From Thermoleophilia bacterium (GTDB lineage Bacteria > Actinomycetota > Thermoleophilia > RBG-16-64-13): a stretch of DNA of 64,000 nt. The stretch covers positions 13,333 to 77,332 of the forward strand of contig JAXGIS010000005.1 in NCBI GenBank assembly GCA_040770645.1, written 5' to 3'. This document shows positions 29,422-54,363 of the stretch, piece after piece (position 1 is the first letter of the stretch; each line of letters begins with the position of its first letter). Made by a program: the position numbers and the translations under genes. The notes beneath the pieces are model-generated. The model was not told the origin of the DNA. It saw only the letters and a list, made by a program, of their open reading frames with translations, and did not search any database.

Positions 29422-29693
29422 GGTGGAGCCGGTGGCGTCAGGTGACCGTTTGCCGGCGGTGTGGTTTGGTTCGTTGTTGGCTACGAAAGGCTGTGATACA
29501 GTTGTTGTGCTCGACCTTGTGCGTGATCTGCTCTCATCTTGAGCCAACACACCATGATCGGGAGGCAGGTTTGTCCGGTCGGCGTACACCTTGCGGGGTG
29601 TGTCCTCCGGGGGCTGCCACCCACCTGCTTCGGCAGGTTCAAGCGCCTGTCAGACACGGCAAGGTGGAGCATTTTTATTTAGGAAGGGAAGCG

Positions 29694-32095: not shown

Positions 32096-32500
32096 ATGAA
32101 CGTAGACACGGTCAGCATCACCATCCCCGACAGGGACCAATTCATCCCGCTCCTGCGCTTGGTGCTGGGCGGTATAGCTATGCGCAAGAACGTTTGTTTC
32201 GATGATTTGGATGACGTGCAGTTGGCCGTGGACGATCTGCTTGCCAACCGGGTGCCCAATGGCGGACAGATCTCAATGGTGGTTCGTGTGGGCGGGGCCT
32301 CGCTCGACATCATCGTGGAGGCGAAGGTAGACGAGGATCTCTGCCGGCGGCTGAAGACGCCGCCGGAGAGCGCCGGAGAGGATCCAGAAACAGCGGTGCT
32401 CGATACGTGCAGGTTACTTCGATCTCTCATGGACGATTACGAAGTGCAGGATCTTCCGGCCGGACGCTTCTCCATCAGGATGACCAAGGAGTGCCGGTGA
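32096..32500 (+). CDS. Anti-sigma factor (RsbW-like serine kinase / HATPase_c).
   Basis: IPLLRLVLGGIAMRKNVCFDDLDDVQLAVDDLLAN resembles the RsbW N-terminus. The stop overlaps the start of the following sigma factor. Confidence 0.6.
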   Translation: MNVDTVSITIPDRDQFIPLLRLVLGGIAMRKNVCFDDLDDVQLAVDDLLANRVPNGGQISMVVRVGGASLDIIVEAKVDEDLCRRLKTPPESAGEDPETAVLDTCRLLRSLMDDYEVQDLPAGRFSIRMTKECR

Positions 32501-33330
32501 GGCGGACGCCCCAGAGCCCTTCTGCTGTCAAAGCGAGGCGGGATCCGCTTCTGCCGCCTTTGAGCGACCTCACCGAGAAAGAATTGCTGCGGCGGATCCA
32601 CGTCGAGGGCGATCAAGATGCGCGCGAGGAGTTGATCACTCGGTGCCTGCCGCTGGTTAGAGGCCTCGCCCGTCGTTTCGCATCGCGGGGGCAACCGGTG
32701 GAGGACTTGGTGCAGGTTGGGTCCATCGGGCTGATCAAAGCCATCGATCGGTTTGATGCCACACGCGGCGTGGAGCTGTCTACCTACGCCACACCCACCA
32801 TTATGGGGGAGATCAAGCGTTATTTCCGTGACAAAGGCTGGGCGGTGAAAGTGCCTCGGGCTTTGCAGGATCTCAACGTGAGATTGAACAAGGTGATCGA
32901 GCAACTGACCGCGGAATTGAACCGCTCCCCAACCATCGCCGACATGGCCATAGCTTGCGGGGTGAGTGAGGAAGAAGTGCTGGAGGCACTCGAGAACGGA
33001 AGGGCCTATAATTCCCTGTCGCTCTACGGCAGCGGCTCAGGAGAAGAGGATGATTCGTTCGAGATCCTGGACTGCTTGGGCGACGAGGAAGGGGCCTATG
33101 AGGTGGTTGAGCAGCGCCGTTTTCTAGCGCCGGCCATGGAACGGCTGGAGGAACGCGAGCGGCTGATACTGCACCTGCGCTTTTTTGAGGGCATGACGCA
33201 GACGCAGATTGCGGCGCGAGTCGGCATCTCGCAGATGCACGTTTCGCGCCTGATTCGCAAGGCCATCGATGTCTTGCGGCAGGAGATGGTGCCGGGTGCC
33301 GGCCGCTCCTCCGGTGGGGCCGCCGCGTAG
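32497..33330 (+). CDS. SigB/SigF-family alternative sigma factor.
   Basis: Region 2 LVQVGSIGLIKAIDRFDATRGVELSTYATPTIMGEIKRYFRD. Region 4 MTQTQIAARVGISQMHVSRLIRKA. Confidence 0.8.
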   Translation: MRRTPQSPSAVKARRDPLLPPLSDLTEKELLRRIHVEGDQDAREELITRCLPLVRGLARRFASRGQPVEDLVQVGSIGLIKAIDRFDATRGVELSTYATPTIMGEIKRYFRDKGWAVKVPRALQDLNVRLNKVIEQLTAELNRSPTIADMAIACGVSEEEVLEALENGRAYNSLSLYGSGSGEEDDSFEILDCLGDEEGAYEVVEQRRFLAPAMERLEERERLILHLRFFEGMTQTQIAARVGISQMHVSRLIRKAIDVLRQEMVPGAGRSSGGAAA

Positions 33331-33402
33331 CCGGCGGTGCCTGCCGTAGCACTCCCCTTCCCAAGTAACTGCAGATCGGTTGTCGGTGAGAGGACACATG
33401 CA

Positions 33403-36097: not shown

Positions 36098-36112
36098 GGC
36101 GAGGCCGGTGAC

Positions 36113-36502
36113 TTGGGGCGAGTCTTGGGAGTGGATGTCGGTTCCAAGAGAACCGGATTCGCGGTGTCCGACCAACTCGGCATTACGTGTCGACCGCTCA
36201 AAGTCGTGCGCGTCAATACGGTGGACGACACGGTGAGCGCCATCATCTCCACGGTTGAAGAGCAACAGGCCGAGACCATCGTGGTGGGAATCCCGCGACC
36301 TCTGAGGGGCGGGCACAGTGATCAGACCGACCACACGCTGGCCGTGGTTCGGTCGCTGTCTGAACGCTCACACGTGCCCGTCGTTTCGTGGGATGAACGT
36401 TTCACCACTAAGCTGGCCCGTGAAGTCACGAGCAGCGAGAAAGAGTTGGATGCCGTGGCGGCGGCCTTCATTTTGCAAAACTATCTGGATGCACAGAAAT
36501 GA
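36113..36502 (+). CDS. ruvX: Holliday-junction-resolvase-like protein RuvX/YqgF.
   Basis: TTG start. LGVDVGSKRTGFAVSD. Confidence 0.85.
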   Translation: MGRVLGVDVGSKRTGFAVSDQLGITCRPLKVVRVNTVDDTVSAIISTVEEQQAETIVVGIPRPLRGGHSDQTDHTLAVVRSLSERSHVPVVSWDERFTTKLAREVTSSEKELDAVAAAFILQNYLDAQK

Positions 36503-36509
36503 GGACTGC

Positions 36510-37547
36510 ATGAGACGCCGCCAACGCATCCTGGTGTTAGTGGGATTCGTGGTGGTGGCAGCGGCCGCTGTTGTGGTGGGTTTGACGCTCATGTCGGCCG
36601 GCGGTCGCTCAGGTGCCACAACTACCGTGGACCTTGGGCCGGTGGAAGTGGTGGTGCGGGCCGGAGCATCCGCCGACAAGATCGCAGCGCAGCTTCAGGA
36701 GGCAGGGGTTATTACCTCTGCCAAGGCCTTCTTGAGTGAAGTGCGGAGCCGTGGCGTGGAAACCGCTCTCAAACCCGGCACGTATGAGTTTGCACGTGGA
36801 GAGCCGTTTGAATCCATACTCAACAAGTTGACCAAGGGGCTCCAGTCGGGCGCGGGCAAAATCACCATACCTGAAGGCTTGTCCATAGATCAGGTGGCAG
36901 GTCGTCTCGACAAGTCGGGTTCCATCGACGGCACTGAGTACGACCAACTCGCCCGCTCACCCTCGCGGTTCACGGTGCCGCCCATCGGTGGCCATACGGT
37001 GTCGGTCAAGGATCTCGAGGGACTGCTCTTCCCCAGCACTTACTTCCTACCGGCGCAGCACAAGGCGGAGGGGCTCATAAAAGCCCAACTGGAGGCCTTC
37101 GCCCAACAGACCGCCGATCTTCCGTGGGCGAATGCCGCTGAACTCAACCTAACCCACTACGAGATCGTCATCATCGCCTCTATGATCGAAAAAGAGACGG
37201 CCATCCCCGAAGAGCGGCCGTTGGTGGCGGCGGTAATCTACAATCGGCTCAAGAAAGACATGCGGTTGGACATCGATGCCACCGTACGCTTCGCTCTCAA
37301 AAAATGGACGGGCGATCTCACCAAGACCGACCTTGCCGTCGACTCTCCGTACAACACGCGTAAGGTCAAGGGCATCCCGCCGGGGCCGATCTCCAGTCCC
37401 GGGCTGGCCGCCCTGCAGGCGGCTCTGAAGCCGACCCAAGTGGATTACTTGTACTACGTGCTCACGCCCAACAACGGCCGGCATTTCTTCACCGCCTCCT
37501 ACGAGGAGTTCCTAGAGGCCAGCAAGAACGTTCCTTCCCAGGATTAA
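36510..37547 (+). CDS. mltG: Endolytic murein transglycosylase MltG (YceG family).
   Basis: N-terminal TM segment. ASMIEKETAIPEERPLVAAVIYNRL...DSPYNTRKVKGIPPGPISSPG. Confidence 0.85.
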   Translation: MRRRQRILVLVGFVVVAAAAVVVGLTLMSAGGRSGATTTVDLGPVEVVVRAGASADKIAAQLQEAGVITSAKAFLSEVRSRGVETALKPGTYEFARGEPFESILNKLTKGLQSGAGKITIPEGLSIDQVAGRLDKSGSIDGTEYDQLARSPSRFTVPPIGGHTVSVKDLEGLLFPSTYFLPAQHKAEGLIKAQLEAFAQQTADLPWANAAELNLTHYEIVIIASMIEKETAIPEERPLVAAVIYNRLKKDMRLDIDATVRFALKKWTGDLTKTDLAVDSPYNTRKVKGIPPGPISSPGLAALQAALKPTQVDYLYYVLTPNNGRHFFTASYEEFLEASKNVPSQD

Positions 37548-37652
37548 CTCGTCCACCTCCCTGCAACCGAAGGCCTATGGGCGGTCGCAGCGCGAACTGC
37601 TAGGCTCGTGAGTAGGGAGGGAATCAGACGTCGGCTGCGGCCGGGGAGGGAG

Positions 37653-38495
37653 ATGGCGGCCATGGAAATCGATGCTGAGACCAAGCTGATCCTGTTGTTG
37701 GGGCATCCCGTACGGCATTCCGTCTCACCGTTGATGCACAACCGTGTGTTCGAAGAACTGGGCCTTCCGCTCGTGTACCTTGCTGCCGACGTGGAACCCG
37801 ATCTACTTGCGCCCGCCGTGGAGGGACTGCGCGCACTCGGGGTGATAGGGGCCAACGTCACGCTTCCGCATAAGGTGAGGGTGATGACATTGTTGGACGC
37901 TGTGGATGAGTACGCGGCCCGTATCGGGGCAGTCAACACCATCGTTAACAGTCACGGTCGCCTACTCGGATACAACACCGACGCCCAGGGTTTCATGTCG
38001 GCGTTGGAGGCTCAGTGGGGAGGAGATGTGGCGTCGGCATCCATCCTGCTGTTGGGGGCAGGTGGCGCGGCCCGTGCAGTGGCAGCGGTGCTGGCTCAAC
38101 GGCGAGTCAAAGAGTTGCGCATCTGGAATCGGACCCCGGCAAAGGCGCATTCGCTGTGTCGTGACGCTCTCGACTGGGGAGCCGTTAGGTGCGTTGTGGT
38201 GGATATCCATGAACCTAGTTGGTTGAAGGATGTGGACGTAGTGGTTCAGGCCACTTCCTCGGGCTTGACGGATGCGGTTAAGGAACCCCTGATACCTGTC
38301 GATATTCTTCGCGAAGACACCTTTGTAATGGACCTGCAGTATGGCGGCAGCCCACTGGTGGCCGCGGCCGTAGCGCGGGGATTGCGTTCTGAGGATGGGC
38401 TGGAGATGCTGGTGCGGCAGGCTTCGCTTTCGTTTCGACTGTGGACAGGTCTCTCTGCTCCCGAGCACGCCATGCGTGCGGCAGCGGCGGGCTGA
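37653..38495 (+). CDS. aroE: Shikimate dehydrogenase.
   Basis: LLLGHPVRHSVSPLMHN...GANVTLPHK...YNTDAQGF...LLLGAGGAARAV. Confidence 0.85.
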   Translation: MAAMEIDAETKLILLLGHPVRHSVSPLMHNRVFEELGLPLVYLAADVEPDLLAPAVEGLRALGVIGANVTLPHKVRVMTLLDAVDEYAARIGAVNTIVNSHGRLLGYNTDAQGFMSALEAQWGGDVASASILLLGAGGAARAVAAVLAQRRVKELRIWNRTPAKAHSLCRDALDWGAVRCVVVDIHEPSWLKDVDVVVQATSSGLTDAVKEPLIPVDILREDTFVMDLQYGGSPLVAAAVARGLRSEDGLEMLVRQASLSFRLWTGLSAPEHAMRAAAAG

Positions 38496-38510
38496 GTGAG
38501 CGATCGCCCT

Positions 38511-40241
38511 ATGATGCAACTGCCGCACGAAGACGTAGTCATTCGCAACAAACCCAGCAAGAAACGCACGGGCGAGATCCTGGTGGAGATGGGGCTCATC
38601 ACCCCTGAACAGCTCTCGGAGGCGCTGGAAGAGCAGAAATCCACGCATCGGCGACTAGGTGAGATCTTGGTGGCCCGGAATTTCATCAGTGGCCCGGAGC
38701 TCGCCGAGGCACTTGGTCGCCGCCTGGGGGTGCGCTACATCGATCTTCACGAGACGCGGATCGATCCTTCGGCCACCAATTTGATCACGGAGAAGGATGC
38801 GCGCCGGTACGCCGCACTGCCCGTGAGTTTCTTGGATGATCACACTGTGTTGGTGGCAATGGTTGATCCCGCCAACATTTTCGCTATCGACGACCTGCGT
38901 ATTCTCACCGGCTACGACATCGAGCCGGGGATTGCCACGGAAGAAGATGTCTTCGAGGCCATCGCCAAACTCAGCAAGCTCGAGGACAAAGTTGGTGGCA
39001 ACATCGAGGATCCTACGATCACCGACCAACGTGCCACTGCCGAGGAAGTGAGGGACATCCTCGAGCAGGTGGACGAAGCACCGGTTGTGAAGTTGGTCAA
39101 CGGCATCATCGCCCAAGCCGTGGAGGACAGCGCATCCGACATCCACTTCGAGCCGCAGGCCAAAGAGATGATCGTGCGGTTTCGGCACGATGGTGTGCTT
39201 CACGAGGTCATGTCCATCCCGCGGCGTATGCAGGCAGGCGTCCTCTCTCGGGTGAAGATCATGGCCGATCTCGATATTGCCGAGCGGCGCATCCCCCAAG
39301 ACGGCCGTATCGGTCTCATGGTGGGCGGTAAACCCATTGATATGCGCGTGGCGTCGTTGCCCACAGTGTACGGCGAGAAGATCGTTATACGCCTGCTGGA
39401 TCGTTCCAACGTCATGATCGAGTTGAAGGATCTCGGCTTCTCACCCAAAGCGCTGGCGAGGTACCAGAAATCGTTCAGCAAACCTTACGGCGCCATCCTG
39501 GTAACCGGTCCCACCGGGTCCGGCAAGTCGACCACCCTCTACGCCACTCTGAACATCCTCAACTCCACCGAGAAGAACATCATCACGGTGGAAGATCCCG
39601 TCGAATACCGGCTCAACGGCATCAATCAGGTGCAGGCCAACGTGAAGACAGGGCTTACGTTCGCGGCAGGCCTCCGCTCTATCCTGCGGTGCGACCCCGA
39701 CATCGTCATGATCGGAGAAATCCGAGATCGTGAGACGGCTCAGATCGCCATTGAGTCGGCTCTCACCGGCCACTTGGTGCTGTCAACGCTGCACACCAAC
39801 GATGCCCCGGGCGCGCTGTCACGCCTCACCGAGATGGGTATCGAGCCGTTCCTCACCGCTTCGGCCGTAGATTGCGTTCTGGCTCAACGCTTGACCAGAC
39901 GCCTCTGTGAGCATTGCAAGGAGCCTTACAAGCCAACGCAAGAGATGTTGCGCCGCAACGACTTCCCACCGGAGGCGGTGGAGAACTGGGAGTCCGTCAC
40001 GCTGTACCGCGCCGTGGGATGCCGGCGCTGCAACAACACCGGATATCGGGGGCGCATGGGCATCTACGAGGTCATGCTGGTGACGGAGGCCATCGAGCGA
40101 CTAACGGTTGAGCGCAAGAGTGCCGATGAAATAGGGAGAGTGGCGCAGGCGGAAGGCATGAAGACTCTGCGCGACGACGGCATCGACAAGGTGCTTGTGG
40201 GTCTGACGAGCATCGAGGAGATCGCTCGGGTTATCGTCTGA
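38511..40241 (+). CDS. pilB: Type IV pilus assembly ATPase PilB (GspE family).
   Basis: N-terminal T2SSE_N region GEILVEMGLITPEQLSEALEEQ. Walker A VTGPTGSGKSTTL. Tetracysteine CEHCKEP...CRRCNNTGY. The ORF opens at the GTG at 38496. Confidence 0.9.
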   Translation: MMQLPHEDVVIRNKPSKKRTGEILVEMGLITPEQLSEALEEQKSTHRRLGEILVARNFISGPELAEALGRRLGVRYIDLHETRIDPSATNLITEKDARRYAALPVSFLDDHTVLVAMVDPANIFAIDDLRILTGYDIEPGIATEEDVFEAIAKLSKLEDKVGGNIEDPTITDQRATAEEVRDILEQVDEAPVVKLVNGIIAQAVEDSASDIHFEPQAKEMIVRFRHDGVLHEVMSIPRRMQAGVLSRVKIMADLDIAERRIPQDGRIGLMVGGKPIDMRVASLPTVYGEKIVIRLLDRSNVMIELKDLGFSPKALARYQKSFSKPYGAILVTGPTGSGKSTTLYATLNILNSTEKNIITVEDPVEYRLNGINQVQANVKTGLTFAAGLRSILRCDPDIVMIGEIRDRETAQIAIESALTGHLVLSTLHTNDAPGALSRLTEMGIEPFLTASAVDCVLAQRLTRRLCEHCKEPYKPTQEMLRRNDFPPEAVENWESVTLYRAVGCRRCNNTGYRGRMGIYEVMLVTEAIERLTVERKSADEIGRVAQAEGMKTLRDDGIDKVLVGLTSIEEIARVIV

Positions 40242-40263
40242 GCGTTCGGTACGGAGGCAACTC

Positions 40264-41343
40264 GTGGATCTAGTGGACATCCTGGTGCAGGTTCTGGAAA
40301 TGGGGGCTTCGGACCTTCATCTCACTGTTGGTCGTCCCCCGGTGGCGAGAGTGCACGGCAGGCTCGTGGAGCTCGAGTATCCACCGCTGAAGGGGGTGGA
40401 GACCAGAGACCTCATCTACAGCGTTCTGACCCAAGATCAGCGTCAGCGTCTGGAGACCGACTGGGAGATCGATTTCTCTTACTCCGTTCCTGCGCGGGCC
40501 CGCTTCCGTGTCAACGCTTACTTTCAGAGGAACAGCCTCGGAGCCGCGTTTCGGCTGGTGCCCTTGAACGTGATGACCATCGATCAGCTCAACCTCCCTC
40601 GGGTTGTTCACACTTTCTGCCAGAAACCGCGGGGTTTCGTTCTTGTCACCGGCCCGACCGGATCGGGAAAGTCCACCACACTCGCGGCCATCATAGACGA
40701 AGTGAACGAGACGAGGTCGGAGCACATCATGACGGTGGAGGATCCCATAGAGTTCCTCCATCAACATAAGAACTGCGTGGTGAATCAACGGGAAGTCGGG
40801 ACCGACACCAAATCTTTCAATCGAGCCCTGAAGTCCGTTCTGCGCCAGGACCCCGACGTGATTCTGGTGGGTGAGATCCGTGACGTGGAGACGGCGCGCA
40901 TCGCGATCCAGGCGGCCCTCACCGGTCACTTCGTGCTGTCGACCATCCACGCCACCGATGCCACCAGCGCCCTGCACCGCTTCTTGGACATGGGCATCGA
41001 GTCGTTCCTCCTGGCGTCGTCAGCAGGAACAGATTCGCGTGCAGATTGCCGCCTCCATCCAGGGCATCATGACTCAGCAACTTCTACCGCGGGCCGGCGG
41101 GGAGGGGCGGGTGGTGGCGTGCGAGGTTTGATCCCCACGCCGGCGGTGAGGAACCTGATCCGTGAGGGCAAGACCCACCAGATCTACACTATTATGCAGA
41201 CAGGCGCAAAGTATGGCATGCAAACTATGGACTGGGCGCTGGCCGATTTGGTGCGGCGACGGTTGATCACGCGTGAACTTGCCGAAGCGCGCTCGTCCAA
41301 TCCCGAGGATTTGAACCGTCTCATCACCAGTGGGGCAGCGTGA
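40264..41343 (+). CDS. pilT: Twitching-motility retraction ATPase PilT. The frame is broken near 41017 and near 41125.
   Basis: ASDLHLTVGRPP...VTGPTGSGKSTTLAAII...GEIRD. The interrupted stretch QQEQIRVQIAASIQGIMTQQLLPRAGGEGRVVACEV is in another frame, then LIPTPAVRNLIREGK returns to the first. Both shifts fit 1-nt homopolymer deletions. Confidence 0.85.
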   Translation: MDLVDILVQVLEMGASDLHLTVGRPPVARVHGRLVELEYPPLKGVETRDLIYSVLTQDQRQRLETDWEIDFSYSVPARARFRVNAYFQRNSLGAAFRLVPLNVMTIDQLNLPRVVHTFCQKPRGFVLVTGPTGSGKSTTLAAIIDEVNETRSEHIMTVEDPIEFLHQHKNCVVNQREVGTDTKSFNRALKSVLRQDPDVILVGEIRDVETARIAIQAALTGHFVLSTIHATDATSALHRFLDMGIESFLLASSAGTDSRADCRLHPGHHDSATSTAGRRGGAGGGVRGLIPTPAVRNLIREGKTHQIYTIMQTGAKYGMQTMDWALADLVRRRLITRELAEARSSNPEDLNRLITSGAA

Positions 41344-41368
41344 TGCAAGTAGTGGGGAGAAGAGGGGT

Positions 41369-42589
41369 ATGAGCACGTACGTCTACACCGCAAGGCCTCA
41401 GCGTGGTGCTCCGGTCAAGGGTGAGATCACGGGGGCGTCCAAAATGGCCGTCGCTGCTGAACTGCGCCGGAGTGGCCTGACGGTCCTGTCGCTCGATGAG
41501 AAAAAGACGGGGTTCTTGGCGACACTGGACCAACAATTGCAGGAAATGGGCCGTATCAAGTTGCGCGACAAGGTGGTGTTCACGCGGCAGTTTGCCACTA
41601 TGATCGCAGCCGGATTGGCCATTCTTCGTGCTCTGCATGTGTTGGAGATGCAGACGTCAAATCAGCGATTCAAGCGCGTGATCAGTCAAGTGCGGGGTGA
41701 TGTGGAGGCGGGCATGCCGATCTCTGACGCCATGGAGAAGCACCCAGTGGCGTTCGATCGGCTCTATGTATCGATGGCACGCGCCGGGGAGATGGGTGGG
41801 GTGCTCGACACGGCGCTCGACCGTCTGGCTACGCAACTCGAAAAGCAAGACAGCCTGCGTCGCTCTGTCAAGTCGGCCATGACCTATCCCATCCTTATCG
41901 GCGTCTTCGCGGTGCTCGTGCTTTTCGGCATGATCCTTTTCGTGATCCCGATATTCAGCGGCATGTACGCCGACCTGGGCGGAACCTTGCCGCTACTCAC
42001 CCGCATCATGGTCGGTATAAGCAACGCGTTGCGCAAGTGGTGGTATGTGATAATCCCGGCTCTGGTTGGGCTCGTGATTGCGCTGCGCGCCCTGAAACGC
42101 AGTCCGCAGGGCACGCGGGGCTGGGATCGTTTCAAACTTATGATCCCCATGCGTATCGGCGACATCGTGAAGAAGATCGCGGTGGCCCGCTTCAGCCGCA
42201 CTCTGGCCACGTTGTTCAGTTCCGGCGTTCCCATACTCCAAGCCCTCGACATCACGGGCAAGACCGCCGGCAATACCGTTATTGAAGAGGCGATGGAGCG
42301 GACGAAGACCGAGATTCGGGGTGGCGAATCCATTGCCAAACCGCTGGAGCAGGCGGCAGTGTTCCCGCCGATGGTGACGCAGATGATCGCGATCGGTGAG
42401 GAGACAGGCGCCTTGGACACGATGCTGCACAAGATCGCGGACTTCTACGAGGATGAAGTAGATGCGGCCGTGAAGCAGCTCACTTCGATCCTGGAGCCGG
42501 TCATGATGATCTTCGTGGGCGGATTGGTGGGCCTCATCGTGATCTCGATGTATCTGCCCATGTTCAACATGTTCAACCTGATCAATTAG
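41369..42589 (+). CDS. pilC: Type IV pilus inner-membrane platform protein PilC (GspF family).
   Basis: Two T2SSF repeats (FTRQFATMIAAGLAILRAL... and FSRTLATLFSSGVPILQAL...) and three TM segments. Confidence 0.9.
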   Translation: MSTYVYTARPQRGAPVKGEITGASKMAVAAELRRSGLTVLSLDEKKTGFLATLDQQLQEMGRIKLRDKVVFTRQFATMIAAGLAILRALHVLEMQTSNQRFKRVISQVRGDVEAGMPISDAMEKHPVAFDRLYVSMARAGEMGGVLDTALDRLATQLEKQDSLRRSVKSAMTYPILIGVFAVLVLFGMILFVIPIFSGMYADLGGTLPLLTRIMVGISNALRKWWYVIIPALVGLVIALRALKRSPQGTRGWDRFKLMIPMRIGDIVKKIAVARFSRTLATLFSSGVPILQALDITGKTAGNTVIEEAMERTKTEIRGGESIAKPLEQAAVFPPMVTQMIAIGEETGALDTMLHKIADFYEDEVDAAVKQLTSILEPVMMIFVGGLVGLIVISMYLPMFNMFNLIN

Positions 42590-42596
42590 GTTCATC

Positions 42597-43526
42597 ATGA
42601 TGAACCCGGTGTCGGTTCAGGCCACGTATCCCGCCGGGCCGCCGAGCAGAGGCTCTGTCGCAGATGCTGTGGTGGGAGGGGACGCACCGGGGGAGATGTC
42701 ACGCCCCCGGGTGGTTGGGCAGGGCGGGCAGGATGTCCTCCCAACCACGCCGGAGTGCTGCATTCGCTTGGCGGGCGGCGAGACGCCGTCCAACGAAGAA
42801 CTCGTCCTCTGCCATCAGCGGCTGGGTTGCTCCGGGTGCCTGGATGAACTCCTAGCACGAAACACAAAACTTCTTCATCACGTGCTCAAGCGCTTCGTGC
42901 ACAGCCGCGAGCCGTACGAAGATCTTCTGCAAGTGGCGTATCTGGGCTTGGTGAAAGCGATCCAGCGGTTCGATCCGTGGCGTGGCATCGTCTTCAGTAC
43001 TTATGCGGTAGCAGTGGTGGACGGAGAGGTGCGCCATTACCTGCGGGACAGCGTTTTGATGCGCCAACCACGCTGGGCCCGGACGGCATACCGCAAAATT
43101 GAAGAAGCACAGTCCGCGTTCTACGCCGAACACAAAAGATTCCCTTCGTTTACCGAACTGGCTGAGCTGGTCAACATCACGCCGGAAGGTGTTCTGGAAG
43201 TAATCCGGGGATGCTCACAGCCGGAGTTGCAGTCGCTGGATGATCCCGACGGTGCTGCGGCGAACCCAAGGCGCTTACGGGACGCGTCATACGGTCTTTG
43301 CGACACGAGAGTTTCACGCTGCTCTTTGGAGGACCGGATAGCCTTGTATCAGGCCATGGCCACGTTGTCGGCTGCACAGAAACGACTCATTTATCTGTTG
43401 TTCTTCCGGGAGTTGACACAGCAGGAAGTGGCCGACGAGTTGGGCATGACGCAACGCACGGTTTCCCGTGAGCAGCACCGAGCTTTGGCCAAGCTCAAAG
43501 CGGTGCTCACCAAGAAGATCTTCTAG
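42597..43526 (+). CDS. Sigma-70-family (group 3, FliA/SigF-like) sigma factor encoded immediately downstream of pilC. It carries a roughly 70-aa low-complexity N-terminal extension.
   Basis: Region 2 DLLQVAYLGLVKAIQRFDPWRGIVFSTYAVAVVDGEVRHYLRD. Region 4 LTQQEVADELGMTQRTVSREQHRALAKL. Confidence 0.75.
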   Translation: MMNPVSVQATYPAGPPSRGSVADAVVGGDAPGEMSRPRVVGQGGQDVLPTTPECCIRLAGGETPSNEELVLCHQRLGCSGCLDELLARNTKLLHHVLKRFVHSREPYEDLLQVAYLGLVKAIQRFDPWRGIVFSTYAVAVVDGEVRHYLRDSVLMRQPRWARTAYRKIEEAQSAFYAEHKRFPSFTELAELVNITPEGVLEVIRGCSQPELQSLDDPDGAAANPRRLRDASYGLCDTRVSRCSLEDRIALYQAMATLSAAQKRLIYLLFFRELTQQEVADELGMTQRTVSREQHRALAKLKAVLTKKIF

Positions 43527-43867
43527 TCCAGCTTCCGCTTGTTCATCTTGCATTGTGCGTGCACCACCAGCATCGCGGCCAGCGTGTCGAACTTGTAATG
43601 CACGATAATCTACATTATGTCAAGTTCATGAACGAGAAACGGGGGTTGGAGGACGGCTTGGAGGTTGGGAACACTCGGCGTCGGCCACGTATCGCACTTG
43701 CGATGCTCCTCCCCACCGGGTACAGTGTTGTCAAGCGTCAGAAAGGAGGTGGTCCAGATCGATACATTGCCTTGTAGACGCAGTGGCTATAGGACCGGGG
43801 TGGTGTTCGCCTCTAGCCGCAAGATACCCGGAGGACGCGCACTTGCGGCGCCCCGGAAGCCACGTCG

Positions 43868-43900
43868 TCTGATCACAGCGCTGAGGGCCGCCACATTGGG
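43868..43900. terminator. GC-rich 13-bp inverted repeat GCTGAGGGCCGCC-ACATT-GGGCGGCCCCTCAGC, between convergent genes.
   Basis: A near-perfect hairpin 18 nt downstream of the minus-strand MerR-like stop. There is no U-tract, which is common in high-GC genomes. Confidence 0.4.
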
Positions 43901-43917
43901 CGGCCCCTCAGCGTCTC

Positions 43918-44673
43918 TCAGCGCACGAGTGCCCGCATATCCTTCAGGAGCAGTAACTGGAAGAGGCTCGAGATCAGCGCGCCCAGATCAAGCACCTGAC
44001 GTTCGCCCTGTTCGCGCCGTTCGGGATGCGGTGAGCGCAAAGCGGGTGCAGTGGCCTGTTCGATGACGGCTGCTTCTCTCTCCACTGCGGAACGTGTCAT
44101 GCGCAGGTTGCGAGGTTCGACCCCGAACCGCCGCAGAAGACCACAGATACGGGCGGCTTCGACATCGCTCTCTGTGAAGACAGCCGTCCCGGCCTCCCCC
44201 ACCCGGCGATCAACCAATCGGAACTCGACTGAGTTGACGCATGAAGTCCTCGTCGACGCCGCTGACCTCGAGCGCTTCATCCCAGGGAATCAGTCTTTCT
44301 TCGCGGCGAAGTCCGGCGGTGCGATCCAGGCCTTGCGGAGATGTAACCGGCGTACCCGATGCCTGCGGCGATGGTACGCCTCGCGCCAAGCGCTCCCGAA
44401 TGACATCCAGCGGCAGGAACTCGTCCTGCTGCATAGCTCAGGATGGTGCGAAGCCGGCGCGCGTCGGCCTGGGCGTAGGTGCGATATCCCCCTGGGGTGC
44501 GTTGCGGAGCAATCAGCCCCTCGTTCTTCGAGGTAACGTACCTTGCTAATACTTAGGTCGGAACCAGTATGCAACGAGTCCACGAGTTGGCCGATCTTCG
44601 AGATCGAGATGTCCGGGAACTCGTCGACCAGGATCTTCAAGACCTGGCCGATGCTGCGCCGATCCGGTGGCAT
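43918..44673 (-). CDS. MerR-family regulator of the actinobacterial Rv1828/FtsR type. The frame is broken twice.
   Basis: Three consecutive minus-strand ORFs carry the pieces: MerR HTH SIGQVLKILVDEFPDISISKI...VRYLEERG, a middle piece LPLDVIRERL, and a C-terminal piece FRLVDRRVGEAGTAVFTESDVEAARICGLLRRFGVEPRNLR. Confidence 0.7.
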
Positions 44674-45174: not shown

Positions 45175-45540
45175 CTAGTCGCGGCCCTCGATCTTCTTGA
45201 CCGGGGCGTAGTCCACGGTGTACGCGTAGCGCCGTCCTGCCAGTTGATCTTCTATGCCTCTGACAATGGTGGGGTTTTCAACCAGTCTGGCGCGCATGTG
45301 CGGTGTTGTGTGATTGACGACGTAATGCTCCTGCATAATGTCGTCATAAGGCTTGCCCTTCCGCATTTCGTTCATGATGTAGCGAATGACTCGCTCTTCG
45401 CGGACACCCGCAGTGGCGTTGAACACGAGTGAACGAAACGCTCCAACCAGACGATTCAGCGCACCAGCCACTAGTCTCCCCCCGTTCGGCTCATATGCTC
45501 GACCGCTACACAGAGAGTACCCGGCGACGGGACACGTCAA
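45175..45540 (-). CDS. Hypothetical 121-aa protein. No family recognised.
   Basis: The ATG overlaps the upstream stop as ATGA. Clear codon periodicity. Motif IMNEMRKGKPYDDIMQEHYVVNHTTPHMRARLVENPTIVRGIEDQL. Confidence 0.45.
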   Translation of the reverse strand: MTCPVAGYSLCSGRAYEPNGGRLVAGALNRLVGAFRSLVFNATAGVREERVIRYIMNEMRKGKPYDDIMQEHYVVNHTTPHMRARLVENPTIVRGIEDQLAGRRYAYTVDYAPVKKIEGRD

Positions 45541-45827
45541 TCCTGCGACAGGCTGTCCTCCACCGCCCCGGGTCTACCACTTAGAATGGCGCTCAGAGAG
45601 TCGATGTCCTCCTCTCGAAACAACCCATCGCCGGTTTTATGCTTGTCTCTCAGCCTACGAACGATCTCGGCGCGGATGATGTCGAGCTTCCCGTGAATGA
45701 TTCTCCGTTCGCGGGAGATCTCGCGTTCCTCGCGCTGCAACCTCTCTGACAGCTCCCTCAACTCGTCGTCCGAATAGGACCTTATGTTCACGAGAACGTC
45801 AAAGGAGTCCTTGCTCACGTTCATCAT
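45537..45827 (-). CDS. Hypothetical 96-aa coiled-coil protein. No family recognised.
   Basis: MMNVSKDSFDVLVNIRSYSDDELRELSERLQREEREISRERRIIHGKLDIIRAEIVRRL. The ATG overlaps the gcvH stop as ATGA. Confidence 0.5.
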   Translation of the reverse strand: MMNVSKDSFDVLVNIRSYSDDELRELSERLQREEREISRERRIIHGKLDIIRAEIVRRLRDKHKTGDGLFREEDIDSLSAILSGRPGAVEDSLSQD

Positions 45828-46210
45828 TCCTCGTTCTGGCTCAACATGGCCTCGTATTCTTCGATGGTCATGAGAGCCTCCAACTCGGCGGCGTCTGCCA
45901 ACCTGACGCGCACCAACCACCCATCTTCGTAGGGGCTCTGGTTGATGAGTTCTGGAGCGTCGATGACCTCTTGGTTGACTTGCACCACCGTCCCACTCAC
46001 CGGTGCGTAGACGTCGGAGACGGCCTTGACCGACTCGATCTCCGCATACGGTTCACCGGCAGTCAGAACAGTCTCTTCCGCCGGCAGTTCCACGTACACG
46101 ATGTCACCCAGGGTCTTCTGTGCATAATCGGTGATCCCGAACACGGCAATCGCTCCGTCCATTCTGACCCAATCGTGTTCTTCGTGGAACCTGAACTCCT
46201 TCAAGTTCAC
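45824..46210 (-). CDS. gcvH: Glycine cleavage system H protein.
   Basis: Lipoyl-lysine motif AEIESVKAVSDVYAPVSG. HEEHDWVRMDGAIAVFGITDYAQ. Confidence 0.85.
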   Translation of the reverse strand: MNLKEFRFHEEHDWVRMDGAIAVFGITDYAQKTLGDIVYVELPAEETVLTAGEPYAEIESVKAVSDVYAPVSGTVVQVNQEVIDAPELINQSPYEDGWLVRVRLADAAELEALMTIEEYEAMLSQNEE

Positions 46211-46270: not shown

Positions 46271-46633
46271 TTAAGTTGAAGCAGAGGTTTGCATGTGGGC
46301 CGCCTGCAGCAGCAAAGCATCAAGCCTGCGCGTGATCTCGGTTCCTCGGGGCATGGGTGTTCCGGCCTCTTCCCTTGCCTCTGTGGTGGTACTCAGATCA
46401 TCTTGGGAGTGGAAAGTGAACTCACCGCTGGAGTTCCGCAGGAGCAGGAAGAAGGCGTCTTCGCCGGCCTGTCCCCCCTCTGTGCCGGCTCGGACCGGTG
46501 CTCCAGCTTCAAGGTGGATTTCACCCTGCGCGCAATCACCAGAGATCCGCACAATCCCCGATGCACGGCGCAGACTCAGGACCTGTAGCACATCGCCGAG
46601 CGCGAAGCAGTCCAACCTACCGTTTACCGCCAC
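46271..46633 (-). CDS. PATAN/DUF4388-domain protein. This family of regulators is linked to motility.
   Basis: LDCFALGDVLQVLSLRRASGIVRISGDCAQGEIHLEAGAPVRA fits the DUF4388 signature (L.DF.L.DVLQ....R.TG.L.....G.I....G). Confidence 0.6.
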   Translation of the reverse strand: MAVNGRLDCFALGDVLQVLSLRRASGIVRISGDCAQGEIHLEAGAPVRAGTEGGQAGEDAFFLLLRNSSGEFTFHSQDDLSTTTEAREEAGTPMPRGTEITRRLDALLLQAAHMQTSAST

Positions 46634-46746
46634 CGTTAGCCGCCTGGTTCGTTTAACTCTCGGAATCTGGATTCTAGCATTGTGGGTCAGGCAAAGCGGC
46701 TATACTGGCCCAAGGTGTCCCGTCACTCACCCGTGAGGAGAGGTAT

Positions 46747-47238
46747 TTGGCTCCACGAAGAGGCCTGATCATCAGCAGCGACCAGATGCGGGTGGTGGAC
46801 ACCATCCTGCAACAGCTACGAGAGGTATCCGGGGTTCGTTTCATTGCGGTAGTGTCCACGAGCGGCCAGCCGATAACCTCGAGCCCCACCGACCATCACC
46901 CGGACATGCTCTCCCTCGCTTCTTTGGCCGCCAGTTCGTTTGCAGCGACCCAGCAACTAGCCGGCATACTCAGTGAGAAGGAGTTCACGCTGCTCTTCCA
47001 CGAAGGTCGTGAACTCAACCTTCACGTAGCTCAAGTATCGGACAAAGTACTGCTGGTTATTGCGTTTGGGCACGATACCCAGGTGGGAAAGGTCCGACTG
47101 TACACCGGTCGGGCTGTTGCCGCTCTGGCACCGGTATTCGCGGAACCCAACGGAGCAGACACGCCTGCCGTGGTCGATGCAGCGTACACGGCCCAGGCGA
47201 GTGAGGCCATCGAAGACCTGTTCACGGGTCAGGAGTGA
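46747..47238 (+). CDS. mglB: Roadblock/LC7-domain protein MglB (GAP for MglA).
   Basis: GVRFIAVVSTSGQPITSS...SLASLAASSFAATQQLAGIL...LLFHEGRELNLHVAQVSDKVLLVIAFG. TTG start after a GAGGAGAGG RBS. The stop overlaps the mglA RBS. Confidence 0.75.
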   Translation: MAPRRGLIISSDQMRVVDTILQQLREVSGVRFIAVVSTSGQPITSSPTDHHPDMLSLASLAASSFAATQQLAGILSEKEFTLLFHEGRELNLHVAQVSDKVLLVIAFGHDTQVGKVRLYTGRAVAALAPVFAEPNGADTPAVVDAAYTAQASEAIEDLFTGQE

Positions 47239-47244
47239 TCGACA

Positions 47245-47829
47245 TTGCCCCTGATCAACTTCGCTGCGCGCGAGATCAACTACAAGATCGTCTACTACGG
47301 ATGTGGTCTTTGTGGCAAGACCACCAACATCCAGTACATCCATCGCAAGGTGAACCCGAACACGCGGGGCAAACTCGTCAGCATCGCCACCGAAGAAGAA
47401 CGCACGCTCTATTTTGACTTCCTACCCCTTTCCCTTGGTTCAGTCAAAGGCATGAAGACACGGTTTCATCTGTACACGGTACCGGGTCAATCCCACTACA
47501 ATGCCTCACGCAAGCTCGTGTTGCAGGGCGTTGACGGCATCGTGTTCGTGGTGGACAGCCAAATCAGCCGGCTTGACGAGAATGTGGAGAGCTATCTCAA
47601 CCTGTGGGACAACCTGTTCGAACAGGGAGACGATCTTTCACGCATGGCCCTCGTACTGCAGATGAACAAACGTGACCTGACAGAGGTGTTCTCGGTGCCA
47701 GATCTGGTGGAGTTGTTGAATCAAATCAGGTCACCGGTATTCGAAGCTTCGGCGCTCACCGGCATTGGGGTGTTCGAGACGCTCAAATCCGTTTGCAAGC
47801 AGGTCATTGCGCGCACGGCTCAGCCGTAG
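47245..47829 (+). CDS. mglA: Ras-like small GTPase MglA.
   Basis: Near-identical to the Myxococcus/Thermus MglA signature: [29 protein letters not shown], intrinsic Arg-finger RTLYFDFLP, switch II YTVPGQ, and G4 NKRDL. TTG start after an AGGAG RBS. Confidence 0.85.
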
Positions 47830-54289: not shown

Positions 54290-54363
54290 TCGGGACGGCC
54301 GGATTTGAACCGGCGACCTTCCGGCCCCCAGCCGGATGCGCTACCAGGCTACGCCACGTCCCG
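54290..54363 (-). tRNA. tRNA-Pro with anticodon GGG. No CCA end is encoded.
   Basis: Folded by hand. Acceptor CGGGACG/CGTCCCG. D-arm GCGT-AGCCTGGTA-GCGC. Anticodon arm TCCGG-CTGGGGG-CCGGA. T-arm GCCGG-TTCAAAT-CCGGC. Discriminator A73. Confidence 0.8.

What the first reader, a model, noticed from the sequence alone, without database searches (positions are those of the whole stretch)
42597..43526. A dedicated group-3 sigma factor with a long N-terminal extension directly downstream of pilC
An ECF-unrelated sigma factor of the sigma-70 family (regions 2 and 4 are clear) starts 8 nt after the pilC stop. It is therefore probably co-transcribed with pilBTC. The first 70 or so residues are low-complexity, rich in Pro, Gly and Ala, and contain a CC-x...-C-x...-CSGC cysteine cluster (ECCIRLAGG...LCHQRLGCSGC). 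That cluster might be a redox- or metal-sensing N-terminal appendage. A pilus-motor operon carrying its own sigma factor is unusual.
Basis: partly seen in the sequence, partly recalled or inferred. Interest (0 to 1): 0.55.

Follow-up and report, generated by a model that had tools for sequence, protein, structure and literature searches.

The report
Pilus-operon sigma factor with cysteine motif
The gene after the pilus-motor genes encodes a real alternative sigma factor that holds this position in dozens of related uncultured actinobacteria, probably switches on the pilin gene, and in this lineage carries a disordered tail and a conserved four-cysteine motif.

Summary
ORF 42597-43526 (+, 309 aa) starts 7 nt after the pilC stop and has sigma-70 regions 2, 3 and 4. 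It scores best with SigB/SigF/SigG models but falls below every curated cut-off.

The arrangement is not unusual. aroE-pilB-pilT-pilC-sigma is conserved in all 59 assessable Thermoleophilia-type loci. In about 40 of them the major pilin gene follows the sigma gene. That pilin gene is preceded by a conserved sigmaB/F-like promoter (GTCTAG-N13-GGGTA) and a c-di-GMP-I riboswitch.

The most likely role is a pilus-dedicated sigma factor that is translationally coupled to pilC and drives pilA. Cyanobacterial SigF does the same for pilA1. The window itself holds no pilin gene and no copy of the promoter motif.

The 65-residue N-terminal tail is coding in the window's subclade but is unconserved and predicted to be disordered. 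The larger clade lacks it.

A four-cysteine motif (C55/56-x16-C72-x5-C78-x2-C81) recurs in the closest relatives. It spans the tail and the first helices of the conserved core. A metal or redox role is plausible but untested.

The window's copy has a compensated frameshift over codons 221-243. This is probably an assembly error.

The parts
38496..40241 (+). pilB (type IV pilus extension ATPase)
   Evidence: ORF. The orthologue in L001 carries Pfam MshEN + T2SSE. Synteny shown.
40264..41343 (+). pilT (retraction ATPase). The window copy has a mosaic, frame-shifted patch at about 40880-41126.
41330..42589 (+). pilC (platform protein, T2SSF). The orthologous gene call is 406 aa, so the true start is probably near 41369.
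42590..42596 (+). 7-nt pilC-sigma spacer with no Shine-Dalgarno sequence. This is a termination-reinitiation type junction.
42597..43526 (+). pilC-linked group-3 sigma factor (309 aa)
42597..42791 (+). N-terminal extension, codons 1-65. It is Pro/Gly/Ala-rich, and residues 1-50 are predicted to be disordered.
42756..42839 (+). Cysteine motif C54/C55-x16/17-C72-x5-C78-x2-C81. It spans the end of the tail, helix 66-76, the turn, and the start of helix 79-88.
42852..43049 (+). Sigma region 2 (residues 86-151), including the invariant GE-x-RH-x-LRD
43092..43223 (+). Sigma region 3 (residues 166-209)
43257..43323 (+). Segment read out of frame relative to three other assemblies of the species (1-nt deletion followed by a 1-nt insertion). 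It lies in the region 3.2/4.1 linker.
43353..43499 (+). Sigma region 4 (residues 253-301), with the invariant G-x-x-Q-x-x-VSRE
45537..45920 (-). Single-motif RsiG-like protein, a homologue of the c-di-GMP-dependent anti-sigma factor. It is a possible partner but the link is unproven. The likely real start is the internal Met at about 45827.
   Evidence: Pfam PF22802, 48 bits. PDB 7lq2_B, Rubrobacter RsiG, E 2e-7.
46271..47829 (.). PATAN/DUF4388 (46271-46633, -), MglB-like (46747-47238, +) and MglA-like GTPase (47245-47829, +). This is a polarity and motility module syntenic with the sigma in this subclade.
32407..33330 (+). Second, canonical SigB/SigF/SigG sigma factor. It is a rival reader of the GTCTA/GGGTA promoter.
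   Evidence: TIGR02980 at 293 bits, above the cut-off. 31% identical to the pilC-linked sigma.

Best explanation
The gene encodes a type IV pilus-dedicated alternative sigma factor. It belongs to group 3 and forms a divergent branch of the SigB/SigF/SigG family.

It is the last gene of an aroE-pilB-pilT-pilC-sigma transcription unit. In this lineage its translation is coupled to termination of pilC. The amount of sigma factor should therefore follow expression of the pilus motor and platform genes.

Bound to core RNA polymerase, it is predicted to read promoters of the form GTCTA(G/A)-N13/14-GGGTA. [quoted passage not shown] In the window's organism pilA has moved elsewhere in the genome. Here the sigma factor has acquired a roughly 65-residue disordered N-terminal tail. 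It has also acquired a four-cysteine motif that links the end of the tail to the first two helices of the conserved core. I infer that this motif binds a metal or acts as a thiol switch that modulates sigma activity.

What is shown:
- the domain composition;
- the conserved synteny;
- that the tail is coding;
- that the cysteine motif is conserved;
- the conserved promoter-plus-riboswitch cassette in relatives.

What is inferred:
- that this sigma factor is the one that reads that promoter;
- co-transcription and translational coupling;
- any function of the cysteines.
For: 1. Domains. Regions 2, 3 and 4 are present. The best families are SigB/F/G at 167 bits and an NCBIfam SigF model (NF005644) at 147 bits. 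The closest solved chains are SigF (1l0o_C, E 1e-26) and S. aureus SigB (8x6g_H). Foldseek top hits are SigB, SigD and WhiG.

2. Synteny. pilC lies directly upstream of the sigma gene in all 59 Thermoleophilia-type loci that include upstream DNA (L004-L065). Homologues in Armatimonadota, Vulcanimicrobiota and other phyla also sit beside pilB, pilT or pilC.

3. Pilin genes. Major pilin genes (GFTLIELL...) follow the sigma gene on the same strand in about 40 loci.

4. Promoter motif.
- A conserved GTGTCTAG-N13-GGGTA/GGGCA/AGGCA element lies a few bases upstream of a c-di-GMP-I riboswitch and pilA.
- In 1.33 Mb of loci the pattern hits only the + strand. In the Thermoleophilia-type loci all 41 hits lie downstream of the sigma gene, in front of pilA or a further pilin paralogue.
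- GTCTAA-N13/14-GGGTAT or GGGAAT also precedes pilA next to the sigma homologue in AT-rich genomes L068, L078 and L071.
- In L074, L075, L081, L082 and L084, GTCTA-N14-GGGTAC plus a c-di-GMP-I-GGC riboswitch lie 250-270 nt upstream of the start codon of the sigma homologue itself. This pattern fits autoregulation. In L070 the same pair precedes the gene, but no start codon could be placed.

5. Precedent. Synechocystis SigF, also group 3, specifically reads the pilA1 promoter (TAGGC at -32, GGGTAA at -12) and autoregulates (PMC2532724).

6. Recognition residues. The residues in regions 2.4, 3.0 and 4.2 are invariant across 119 homologues. The window protein should therefore share their promoter specificity.

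7. Translational coupling. Subclade junctions are stop-N6/7-ATG or overlapping GTGA, with no Shine-Dalgarno sequence. The tail-less clade has GGAGG followed by GTG.

8. The tail is coding and is predicted to be disordered, with pLDDT 40-48 for residues 1-50.

9. Cysteine motif. C72, C78 and C81 occur together in 11 of 119 homologues. Nine of those 11 also have a cysteine within 25 residues upstream, eight of them at position 55/56, against 6 of 108 others (Fisher p = 3e-8; the sequences are not phylogenetically independent). A further partial homologue, P0122, has the same four positions.
Against: - No pilin gene, no GTCTA/GGGTA site and no c-di-GMP riboswitch occur anywhere in the 64-kb window or in the flanks of the subclade loci. 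The proposed target is therefore unverified for this organism.
- The promoter resembles the general sigmaB/sigmaF consensus, so the canonical SigB/F/G sigma at 32407-33330 could read it instead.
- The cross-phylum homologues are only modestly closer to the pilC-linked sigma (156-167 bits) than to the canonical one (129-146 bits). L068 is ambiguous.
- pilA in relatives also carries a sigma28/WhiG-type promoter in 28 of 41 sites. Another sigma factor therefore certainly contributes.
- The protein scores below the curated cut-off of every named subfamily.
- The window's own copy has a frame-shifted linker.
- No metal-binding or redox evidence exists. I could not inspect the distances between the cysteines in the model.
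Confidence: 0.6

Rival explanations
1. The protein is the local partner of the neighbouring RsiG-like anti-sigma factor. It would be a WhiG-type sigma held inactive by (RsiG)2-(c-di-GMP)2, as in Rubrobacter, and it would read the sigma28-like TAAAG-N16-GCCGA promoter found upstream of pilA.
For: - A single-motif RsiG homologue lies 2 kb downstream, with the motif E-x3-S-x2-R-x3-H-x3-D.
- It is syntenic with the sigma gene throughout the window's subclade.
- The RsiG-WhiG switch controls type IV pilus genes in Rubrobacter (PMC8325347).
- A sigma28-like element precedes pilA at 28 of 41 sites in relatives.
Against: - The FliA/WhiG model scores 90 bits (cut-off 189.6), against 167 bits for SigB/F/G.
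- Rubrobacter WhiG (7lq4_A) matches at only 31 bits, E 2e-6. S. venezuelae WhiG matches at 57 bits, against 97 bits for SigF.
- RsiG sits inside the ftsR-garA-gcvH block on the opposite strand.
- RsiG is absent from the 10-kb flanks in the larger, tail-less clade.
Confidence: 0.12
2. The protein is a general or stress-type SigB/SigF paralogue whose regulon is not centred on pili. Its position after pilC would be a frozen accident of an ancient gene order, and the pilA promoter would be read by the canonical SigB/F/G sigma factor.
For: - The promoter GTCTA-N13/14-GGGTA is close to the generic sigmaB/sigmaF consensus (established knowledge).
- A canonical SigB/F/G sigma factor is encoded 9 kb upstream.
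- No target site is present in the window.
Against: - The gene order is kept across about 57 species-level genomes at 44-60% protein identity and recurs in other phyla.
- In most loci the gene sits between pilC and pilA.
- The same promoter precedes the sigma homologue itself in several phyla.
Confidence: 0.2
3. The N-terminal extension is an annotation artefact. Translation would really start at Met34 (42696) or Leu58 (TTG, 42768), and the upstream cysteines would be irrelevant.
For: - No Shine-Dalgarno sequence precedes ATG 42597.
- Residues 1-50 are predicted to be disordered.
- More than 30 of 119 homologues have no extension.
- The GC periodicity of the extension is weak.
Against: - The sigma frame has 1 stop in 548 codons across 11 loci, against 15 and 8 in the other frames.
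- An in-frame start lies -4 to +7 nt from the pilC stop in 8 of 11 loci.
- A cysteine conserved at position 55/56 co-occurs with C72. This excludes a start at Leu58 but does not exclude Met34.
- Met34 has GGGGGAG immediately abutting the ATG, which is an unsuitable spacing.
Confidence: 0.12
4. The window's copy is a damaged or inactive allele, and the local pilus genes are decaying.
For: - There is a compensated frameshift over codons 221-243, with loss of the invariant P243 and the nearly invariant F240 and L242.
- pilT carries a foreign PilB-like patch plus out-of-frame codons.
- The FtsR-like gene is split.
Against: - The essential alaS gene is also split in the same 10-kb stretch. The flanking regions have no indels at all against the same reference contigs. 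This pattern points to local assembly or consensus errors.
- Three other assemblies encode the intact protein P0001.
Confidence: 0.1

Closest known systems
Cyanobacterial SigF (Synechocystis sp. PCC 6803; PMC2532724)
   Same: It is a group-3 sigma factor of the SigB/F/G branch. It specifically drives the major pilin gene from a non-sigma70 promoter with a GGGTA(A) -10/-12 element and a TAGG-containing upstream element, and it autoregulates. The NCBIfam SigF model NF005644 is the second-best hit at 147 bits. My recollection that this model is the cyanobacterial one was not checked here.
   Different: - The score is below that model's cut-off of 261.
- The gene is embedded in the pilBTC operon and translationally coupled to pilC.
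- The predicted upstream element is GTCTAG.
- Target leaders carry c-di-GMP-I riboswitches.
- The window lineage adds a disordered tail and a Cys4 motif.
- Orthology with SigF was not tested by phylogeny.
Bacillus/Staphylococcus SigB, Bacillus SigF and Mycobacterium SigF (partner-switching sigma factors)
   Same: They give the best sequence and fold matches (1l0o_C, 8x6g_H). Their promoter type is similar (GTTT-N12-15-GGGTAT; established knowledge).
   Different: No RsbW/SpoIIAB-type anti-sigma kinase or STAS anti-anti-sigma gene is seen among the Pfam-annotated neighbours. The TIGR02980 score is below its cut-off.
WhiG-RsiG-(c-di-GMP) switch of Actinobacteria (PMC8325347)
   Same: It is an actinobacterial alternative sigma factor that controls type IV pilus genes in the sister class Rubrobacteria. 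An RsiG homologue is encoded nearby. Sigma28-like promoters precede pilA in relatives.
   Different: This protein is not a WhiG orthologue by HMM score or PDB similarity. Interaction with RsiG is untested.
Zinc-binding anti-sigma (ZAS) motif H-x3-C-x2-C (e.g. RsrA) and cysteine-rich ECF sigma factors such as CorE (recalled from memory, not tested)
   Same: Both have a cluster of Cys ligands that includes a C-x2-C at a helix start. That cluster lets a sigma or anti-sigma system respond to thiol oxidation or metals.
   Different: Here the motif is C-x16-C-x5-C-x2-C, and it sits in the sigma factor itself, at region 1.2/2.1 of a group-3 sigma. The spacing does not fit the ZAS signature. No metal or redox data exist.

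Membership tests
Sigma-70 family, group 3 | Regions 2, 3 and 4 are present, and region 1.1 is absent | tested here: met
   Pfam r2, r3 and r4 all score above their cut-offs. There is no r1_1 or r1_2 hit. The AlphaFold model is helical from residue 66, with pLDDT above 90.
SigB/SigF/SigG subfamily (TIGR02980) | Score at or above the curated cut-off of 234.35 bits | tested here: not met
   167.4 bits over profile positions 6-224 of 227. This is the best-matching subfamily, but the protein is a divergent branch.
SigB/SigF/SigG subfamily | An adjacent partner-switching module (RsbW/SpoIIAB kinase plus a STAS antagonist) | tested here: not met
   No HATPase or STAS family appears among the precomputed Pfam hits for genes within 10 kb in L001-L005, nor in the small ORFs tested in the window. 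The rest of the genome is not available.
FliA/WhiG (sigma28) subfamily (TIGR02479) | Score at or above the curated cut-off of 189.6 bits | tested here: not met
   90.1 bits. Rubrobacter WhiG 7lq4_A matches at only 30.7 bits.
FliA/WhiG (WhiG2 clade) | c-di-GMP-dependent binding by RsiG | not testable with these tools
   An RsiG homologue is present at 45537-45920.
Cyanobacterial-type SigF (NF005644) | Score at or above the curated cut-off of 261 bits | tested here: not met
   147 bits.
Cyanobacterial-type SigF (function) | Drives the major pilin gene from a GGGTA-type promoter and autoregulates | tested here: inconclusive
   A conserved GTCTA-N13/14-GGGTA element lies upstream of pilA next to the sigma gene in about 40 loci, and upstream of the sigma homologue itself in 5-6 loci of other phyla. 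No site is present in the window. No biochemical data exist.
ECF (group 4) sigma factors | Only regions 2 and 4, with no region 3 | tested here: not met
   Region 3 is present. The Sigma70_ECF hit covers region 4 only.
ZAS-type zinc/redox motif | The H-x3-C-x2-C signature | tested here: not met
   The sequence is C72-H73-x4-C78-x2-C81. H73 is Tyr in most relatives. The conserved pattern is C-x5-C-x2-C plus a cysteine 16-17 residues upstream.

The most novel reading that the evidence does not exclude
A group-3 sigma factor carries its own sensor. The four-cysteine site would be formed between a disordered N-terminal tail and the region 1.2/2.1 helices. It would bind Zn or an Fe-S cluster, or form a disulfide, and so make pilin transcription respond directly to redox state or metal supply without a separate anti-sigma factor.

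This sigma factor would be the transcriptional arm of a cassette widespread in Terrabacteria. In that cassette its GTCTA-N13/14-GGGTA promoters are paired with c-di-GMP-I riboswitches in front of pilin genes and of the sigma gene itself.
Probability: 0.2. Interest if true: 0.7.

Novelty: new variant of a known kind. Interest (0 to 1): 0.5.

Why it matters
Control of type IV pili in deep-branching Actinomycetota has so far been attributed to the WhiG-RsiG-c-di-GMP switch.

The comparative data here point to a second, undescribed layer with three parts:
- a SigF-like sigma factor fixed inside the pilBTC operon in the Thermoleophilia-type genomes sampled here;
- a recognisable cognate promoter;
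- a c-di-GMP-I riboswitch.

This gives a concrete and testable regulon signature for organisms known only from metagenomes. It also extends the cyanobacterial SigF-pilA1 arrangement to other Terrabacteria.

The built-in Cys4 motif, if it is functional, would be an unusual way of regulating a sigma factor.

For annotation, these genes are currently labelled 'sigma-F', 'sigma-B' or 'sigma-70 family'. They could be given a specific name.

Tried and rejected
- Pilin genes in the window. A six-frame search for the class III signal motif found none.
- Promoter scans of the window and of the subclade loci. I used a 32-column weight matrix built from 33 pilA-upstream sites. The best window score was 14.0, against training sites of 15-45 and a best shuffle score of 15.3. 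Relaxed regular expressions gave one intragenic hit at 58217 and nothing upstream of pilB, the sigma gene or mglBA.
- Sigma28/WhiG-type promoters in the window. Only relaxed or intragenic matches were found.
- Rfam search of the whole window. It found only a 6S RNA and a tRNA.
- Permissive Rfam search of the 390-nt spacer after the sigma gene. It gave only a sub-threshold sRNA hit, so there is no riboswitch remnant.
- Sigma70-type promoter and terminator scan of 38000-44500. Nothing was found at the pilC-sigma junction. Terminator-like hits numbered 6, against 3.9 +/- 1.9 expected, and all were intragenic.
- A second homologue search with the N-terminal 108 residues returned only 7 fragments. 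One of them added a further Cys4 example.
- An anti-sigma partner next to the upstream canonical sigma. The small ORFs there have no RsbW or STAS domains.
- The idea that the protein is the WhiG orthologue was considered and rejected on HMM and PDB scores.
- Literature searches found no description of a pilC-linked sigma factor in Thermoleophilia or other Actinobacteria. The library is limited to open-access papers.
Full report
**1. What is in the sequence**

ORF 42597-43526 on the + strand encodes 309 residues. The upstream ORF 41330-42589 is pilC. It ends with TAG at 42587-42589, so seven bases (gttcatc) separate the two genes. pilB (38496-40241) and pilT (40264-41343) lie just before pilC on the same strand.

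Pfam finds sigma-70 region 2 (residues 86-151), region 3 (166-209) and region 4 (253-301). It finds no region 1.1 or 1.2. In NCBIfam the best model is SigB/SigF/SigG (TIGR02980, 167 bits, cut-off 234). Next comes a SigF model (NF005644, 147 bits, cut-off 261). FliA/WhiG scores 90 bits (cut-off 190).

The closest solved chains are Geobacillus SigF (1l0o_C, E 1e-26) and S. aureus SigB (8x6g_H). S. venezuelae WhiG is much weaker (E 2e-14), and Rubrobacter WhiG is barely detected (E 2e-6).

An AlphaFold model built from 119 homologues has pLDDT above 90 from residue 61 onwards. Its best fold matches are SigB, SigD and WhiG.

The protein is therefore a genuine group-3 sigma factor. It is a divergent member of the SigB/F/G branch that meets no curated subfamily threshold.

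**2. The window's copy is imperfect**

The window is 98-99% identical to contigs from three other assemblies of the same species (L001-L003, labelled 'Actinobacteria bacterium ADurb.Bin444' and others). All three encode one protein, P0001.

Relative to them, the window has a 1-nt deletion near 43257 and a 1-nt insertion near 43323. Codons 221-243 therefore read AANPRRLRDASYGLCDTRVSRCS instead of AGEPKALTGRVIRSLRHESFTLP. This removes the invariant P243 and the nearly invariant D228, F240 and L242.

The same 10-kb stretch (34988-44595) contains other damage:
- a split alaS;
- a mosaic, frame-shifted patch in pilT;
- a split FtsR/MerR-like gene.

The flanking alignments contain no indel at all. 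Because alaS is essential, local assembly or consensus error is the likeliest cause. I used P0001 as the reference protein.

**3. The gene order is the rule, not an oddity**

I scanned one genome per GTDB species with the family profile. It returned 80 loci out of 525 confirmed relatives.

In every Thermoleophilia-type locus that includes upstream DNA, the order is aroE-pilB-pilT-pilC-sigma. That is 59 loci, L004-L065, at 44-61% identity. Three further loci begin at the sigma gene and cannot be assessed. More distant homologues (35-43% identity) in Armatimonadota, Vulcanimicrobiota and unclassified bacteria also sit beside pilB, pilT or pilC.

The window belongs to a subclade (L001-L013, L018, L042, L063). 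In this subclade the sigma gene is followed, on the opposite strand, by an FtsR/MerR-like gene, an FHA (OdhI/GarA-like) gene, a small hypothetical gene, an RsiG-like gene, gcvH and a PATAN/DUF4388 gene. MglB and MglA then follow on the same strand as the sigma gene.

**4. What the neighbours say about function**

In about 40 loci of the other clades the sigma gene is followed on the same strand, after 300-2500 nt, by one or more major pilin genes (leader ...K/R-G|FTLIELLIVIIIIGILAAIAIP...).

The spacer in front of the first pilin gene is strikingly conserved. It contains:
- a motif GTGTCTAG-N13-GGGTA (with GGGCA or AGGCA variants);
- a few bases later, a c-di-GMP-I riboswitch, confirmed above Rfam gathering scores in seven loci (RF01051/RF03167);
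- a terminator-like hairpin.

The motif has the architecture of sigmaB/sigmaF promoters (GTTT-N12-15-GGGTAT; established knowledge). It also resembles the SigF-dependent pilA1 promoter of Synechocystis, which has TAGGC at -32 and GGGTAA at -12 (PMC2532724).

A simple pattern for the motif hits only the + strand across 1.33 Mb of loci. In the Thermoleophilia-type loci all 41 hits lie downstream of the sigma gene, in front of pilA or a further pilin paralogue.

The same element, GTCTAA-N13/14-GGGTAT or GGGAAT, precedes pilA next to the sigma homologue in three AT-rich genomes of other phyla (L068, L078, L071). There it stands out from the AT-rich background.

In L074, L075, L081, L082 and L084, GTCTA-N14-GGGTAC and a c-di-GMP-I-GGC riboswitch lie 250-270 nt upstream of the start codon of the sigma homologue itself. 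L070 has the same pair, but no start codon could be placed. Further copies of the promoter-riboswitch pair occur elsewhere in those loci. This is the pattern expected of an autoregulated sigma factor.

The DNA-recognition segments are invariant across 119 homologues: GE-x-RH-x-LRD, RQPRW and G-x-x-Q-x-x-VSRE. The window protein should therefore share this specificity.

**5. Limits of that inference**

The window contains no pilin signature, no copy of the motif and no riboswitch. The best weight-matrix score was 14.0, against 15-45 for real sites and 15.3 for the best shuffle. In this organism pilA must lie elsewhere in the genome.

The motif resembles the generic sigmaB/F consensus, and a canonical SigB/F/G sigma factor is encoded at 32407-33330 (293 bits). 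That protein could read the promoter instead.

The cross-phylum homologues are only moderately closer to the pilC-linked protein (156-167 bits) than to the canonical one (129-146 bits), and L068 is ambiguous.

In 28 of 41 sites the pilA leader also has a sigma28/WhiG-like TAAAG-N16-GCCGA element, either 5-7 nt or 34-40 nt upstream of the motif, with one site at 63 nt. This agrees with the published control of pilus genes by WhiG in Rubrobacter (PMC8325347). pilA therefore appears to have two promoters, and the assignment of sigma factors to them rests on linkage.

**6. The N-terminal extension**

The conserved core begins at N66 (N-E-x-L-V). In the larger clade the protein is 246 aa long. It starts with GTG two residues before that Asn, 13-24 nt after the pilC stop, behind a GGAGG ribosome-binding site.

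In the window's subclade, 99-202 nt separate the pilC stop from the core. Several findings show that this stretch is coding:
- Across 11 loci it contains 1 stop codon in the sigma frame, against 15 and 8 in the other two frames (548 codons).
- In 8 of the 11 loci an in-frame start lies within -4 to +7 nt of the pilC stop. The forms are TAG-N6/7-ATG or an overlapping GTGA, with no Shine-Dalgarno sequence.

This is the signature of termination-reinitiation coupling. The extension is therefore real, and the start at 42597/42600 is the best call. Met34 cannot be formally excluded. Leu58 is excluded by the conserved cysteine upstream of it.

The tail itself varies in length from 32 to 66 residues. 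It cannot be aligned between genera. In the window it is 38% Pro+Gly+Ala, and it is predicted to be disordered (pLDDT 40-48 for residues 1-50 and 63 for 51-60).

**7. The cysteines**

C72, C78 and C81 belong to the core. C72 is in helix 66-76, C78 is in the turn, and C81 is in the first turn of helix 79-88.

Among 119 homologues, 91 have none of these cysteines and no cysteine within 25 residues upstream of the core. Five have only C78 and C81, and 11 have all three. Nine of the 11 also have a cysteine within 25 residues upstream of N66, and eight of those are at position 55/56. Examples are ...CCRNDDPAGST|N...RCRNDNLADTT|N and ...ECCIRLAGGETPS|N. Only 6 of the 108 other sequences have such an upstream cysteine (Fisher p = 3e-8; the sequences are related, so this overstates independence).

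An additional partial homologue at 70% identity, P0122, has the same four positions. A strain variant, P0121, keeps the cysteines although neighbouring residues differ.

The pattern C-x16-C-x5-C-x2-C at fixed spacing is typical of a metal site or a redox-active cluster. It does not fit the ZAS signature H-x3-C-x2-C. No tool available here could test metal binding or report Cys-Cys distances.

**8. The RsiG neighbour**

ORF 45537-45920 (-) carries the RsiG-like domain (48 bits, cut-off 27). It aligns with Rubrobacter RsiG (7lq2_B, E 2e-7). It keeps the c-di-GMP motif with His in place of Gln.

RsiG is the c-di-GMP-armed anti-sigma factor of WhiG. The pilC-linked sigma factor is not a WhiG orthologue by score, and RsiG is not linked to it in the tail-less clade. 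I therefore rate a partnership as possible but unlikely (0.12).

**9. Verdict**

The best explanation is a pilus-dedicated SigF-like sigma factor. It would be co-expressed with the pilus motor and platform genes and translationally coupled to pilC, and it would direct pilin transcription from GTCTA-N13/14-GGGTA promoters. In relatives those promoters are paired with c-di-GMP riboswitches (confidence 0.6).

The lineage-specific disordered tail and Cys4 motif are real features of unknown function. I found no published description of this operon-embedded sigma factor. The kind of system, an alternative sigma factor for pilin genes, is known from cyanobacteria. I therefore class it as a new variant of a known kind and score its interest as moderate.

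Noticed in passing
L014-L064 (e.g. L022 10854-11130, L016 10876-11136, L051 10807-11025): In related Thermoleophilia the major pilin gene directly downstream of the sigma gene carries a c-di-GMP-I riboswitch (Rfam RF01051/RF03167, above gathering score) and a terminator-like hairpin in its leader. This is preceded by the GTCTAG-N13-GGGTA element and, in 28 of 41 sites, by a sigma28/WhiG-like TAAAG-N16-GCCGA element.
   Followed up: yes
L070 7078-7282, L074 7707-7898, L075 9635-9825, L081 9604-9790, L082 9583-9789, L084 9598-9789: In Armatimonadota-type genomes the sigma homologue itself is preceded by GTCTA-N14-GGGTAC and a c-di-GMP-I-GGC variant riboswitch. Further promoter-riboswitch pairs lie about 5 kb upstream in the same loci. 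The promoter and riboswitch seem to travel together as a cassette.
   Followed up: partly
window 40880-41126 (pilT): Relative to three other assemblies of the species, about 165 nt of pilT are replaced by a PilB/GspE-like sequence ([51 protein letters not shown]), followed by about 40 out-of-frame codons. This is either an assembly chimera or a gene conversion from a paralogue.
   Followed up: partly
window 33337-36097 (alaS) and 43918-44673 (FtsR/MerR-like): Both genes are split into two ORFs by indels that are absent from the reference contigs. All indels against those contigs fall within 34988-44595, and the flanks have none. This suggests a locally poor consensus.
   Followed up: partly
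window 45537-45920 (-): This is a single-motif RsiG homologue (a c-di-GMP-dependent anti-sigma factor). Its motif is E-x3-S-x2-R-x3-H-x3-D, with His where Gln is usual. It sits between an FHA (OdhI/GarA-like) gene and gcvH.
   Followed up: partly
window 46271-47829: A PATAN/DUF4388 gene lies divergent from an MglB-like (Roadblock) and MglA-like small GTPase pair. This is a cell-polarity module known from pilus-driven motility in other phyla. It is syntenic with the pilBTC-sigma block in this subclade only.
   Followed up: no
window 32407-33330 (+): A second, canonical SigB/SigF/SigG sigma factor (293 bits) lies just upstream of alaS. Its likely start is downstream of 32407. The small ORFs in front of it show no RsbW or STAS domains.
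   Followed up: partly
window 29506-29674 (+) and 54290-54363 (-): A 6S RNA (74 bits) and a tRNA gene.
   Followed up: no
window 43527-43917: The 390-nt spacer between the convergent sigma and FtsR-like genes folds more stably than shuffled sequences (z = -3.35). It ends in a strong GC-rich hairpin at about 43880-43915. No Rfam family matches it above threshold.
   Followed up: partly
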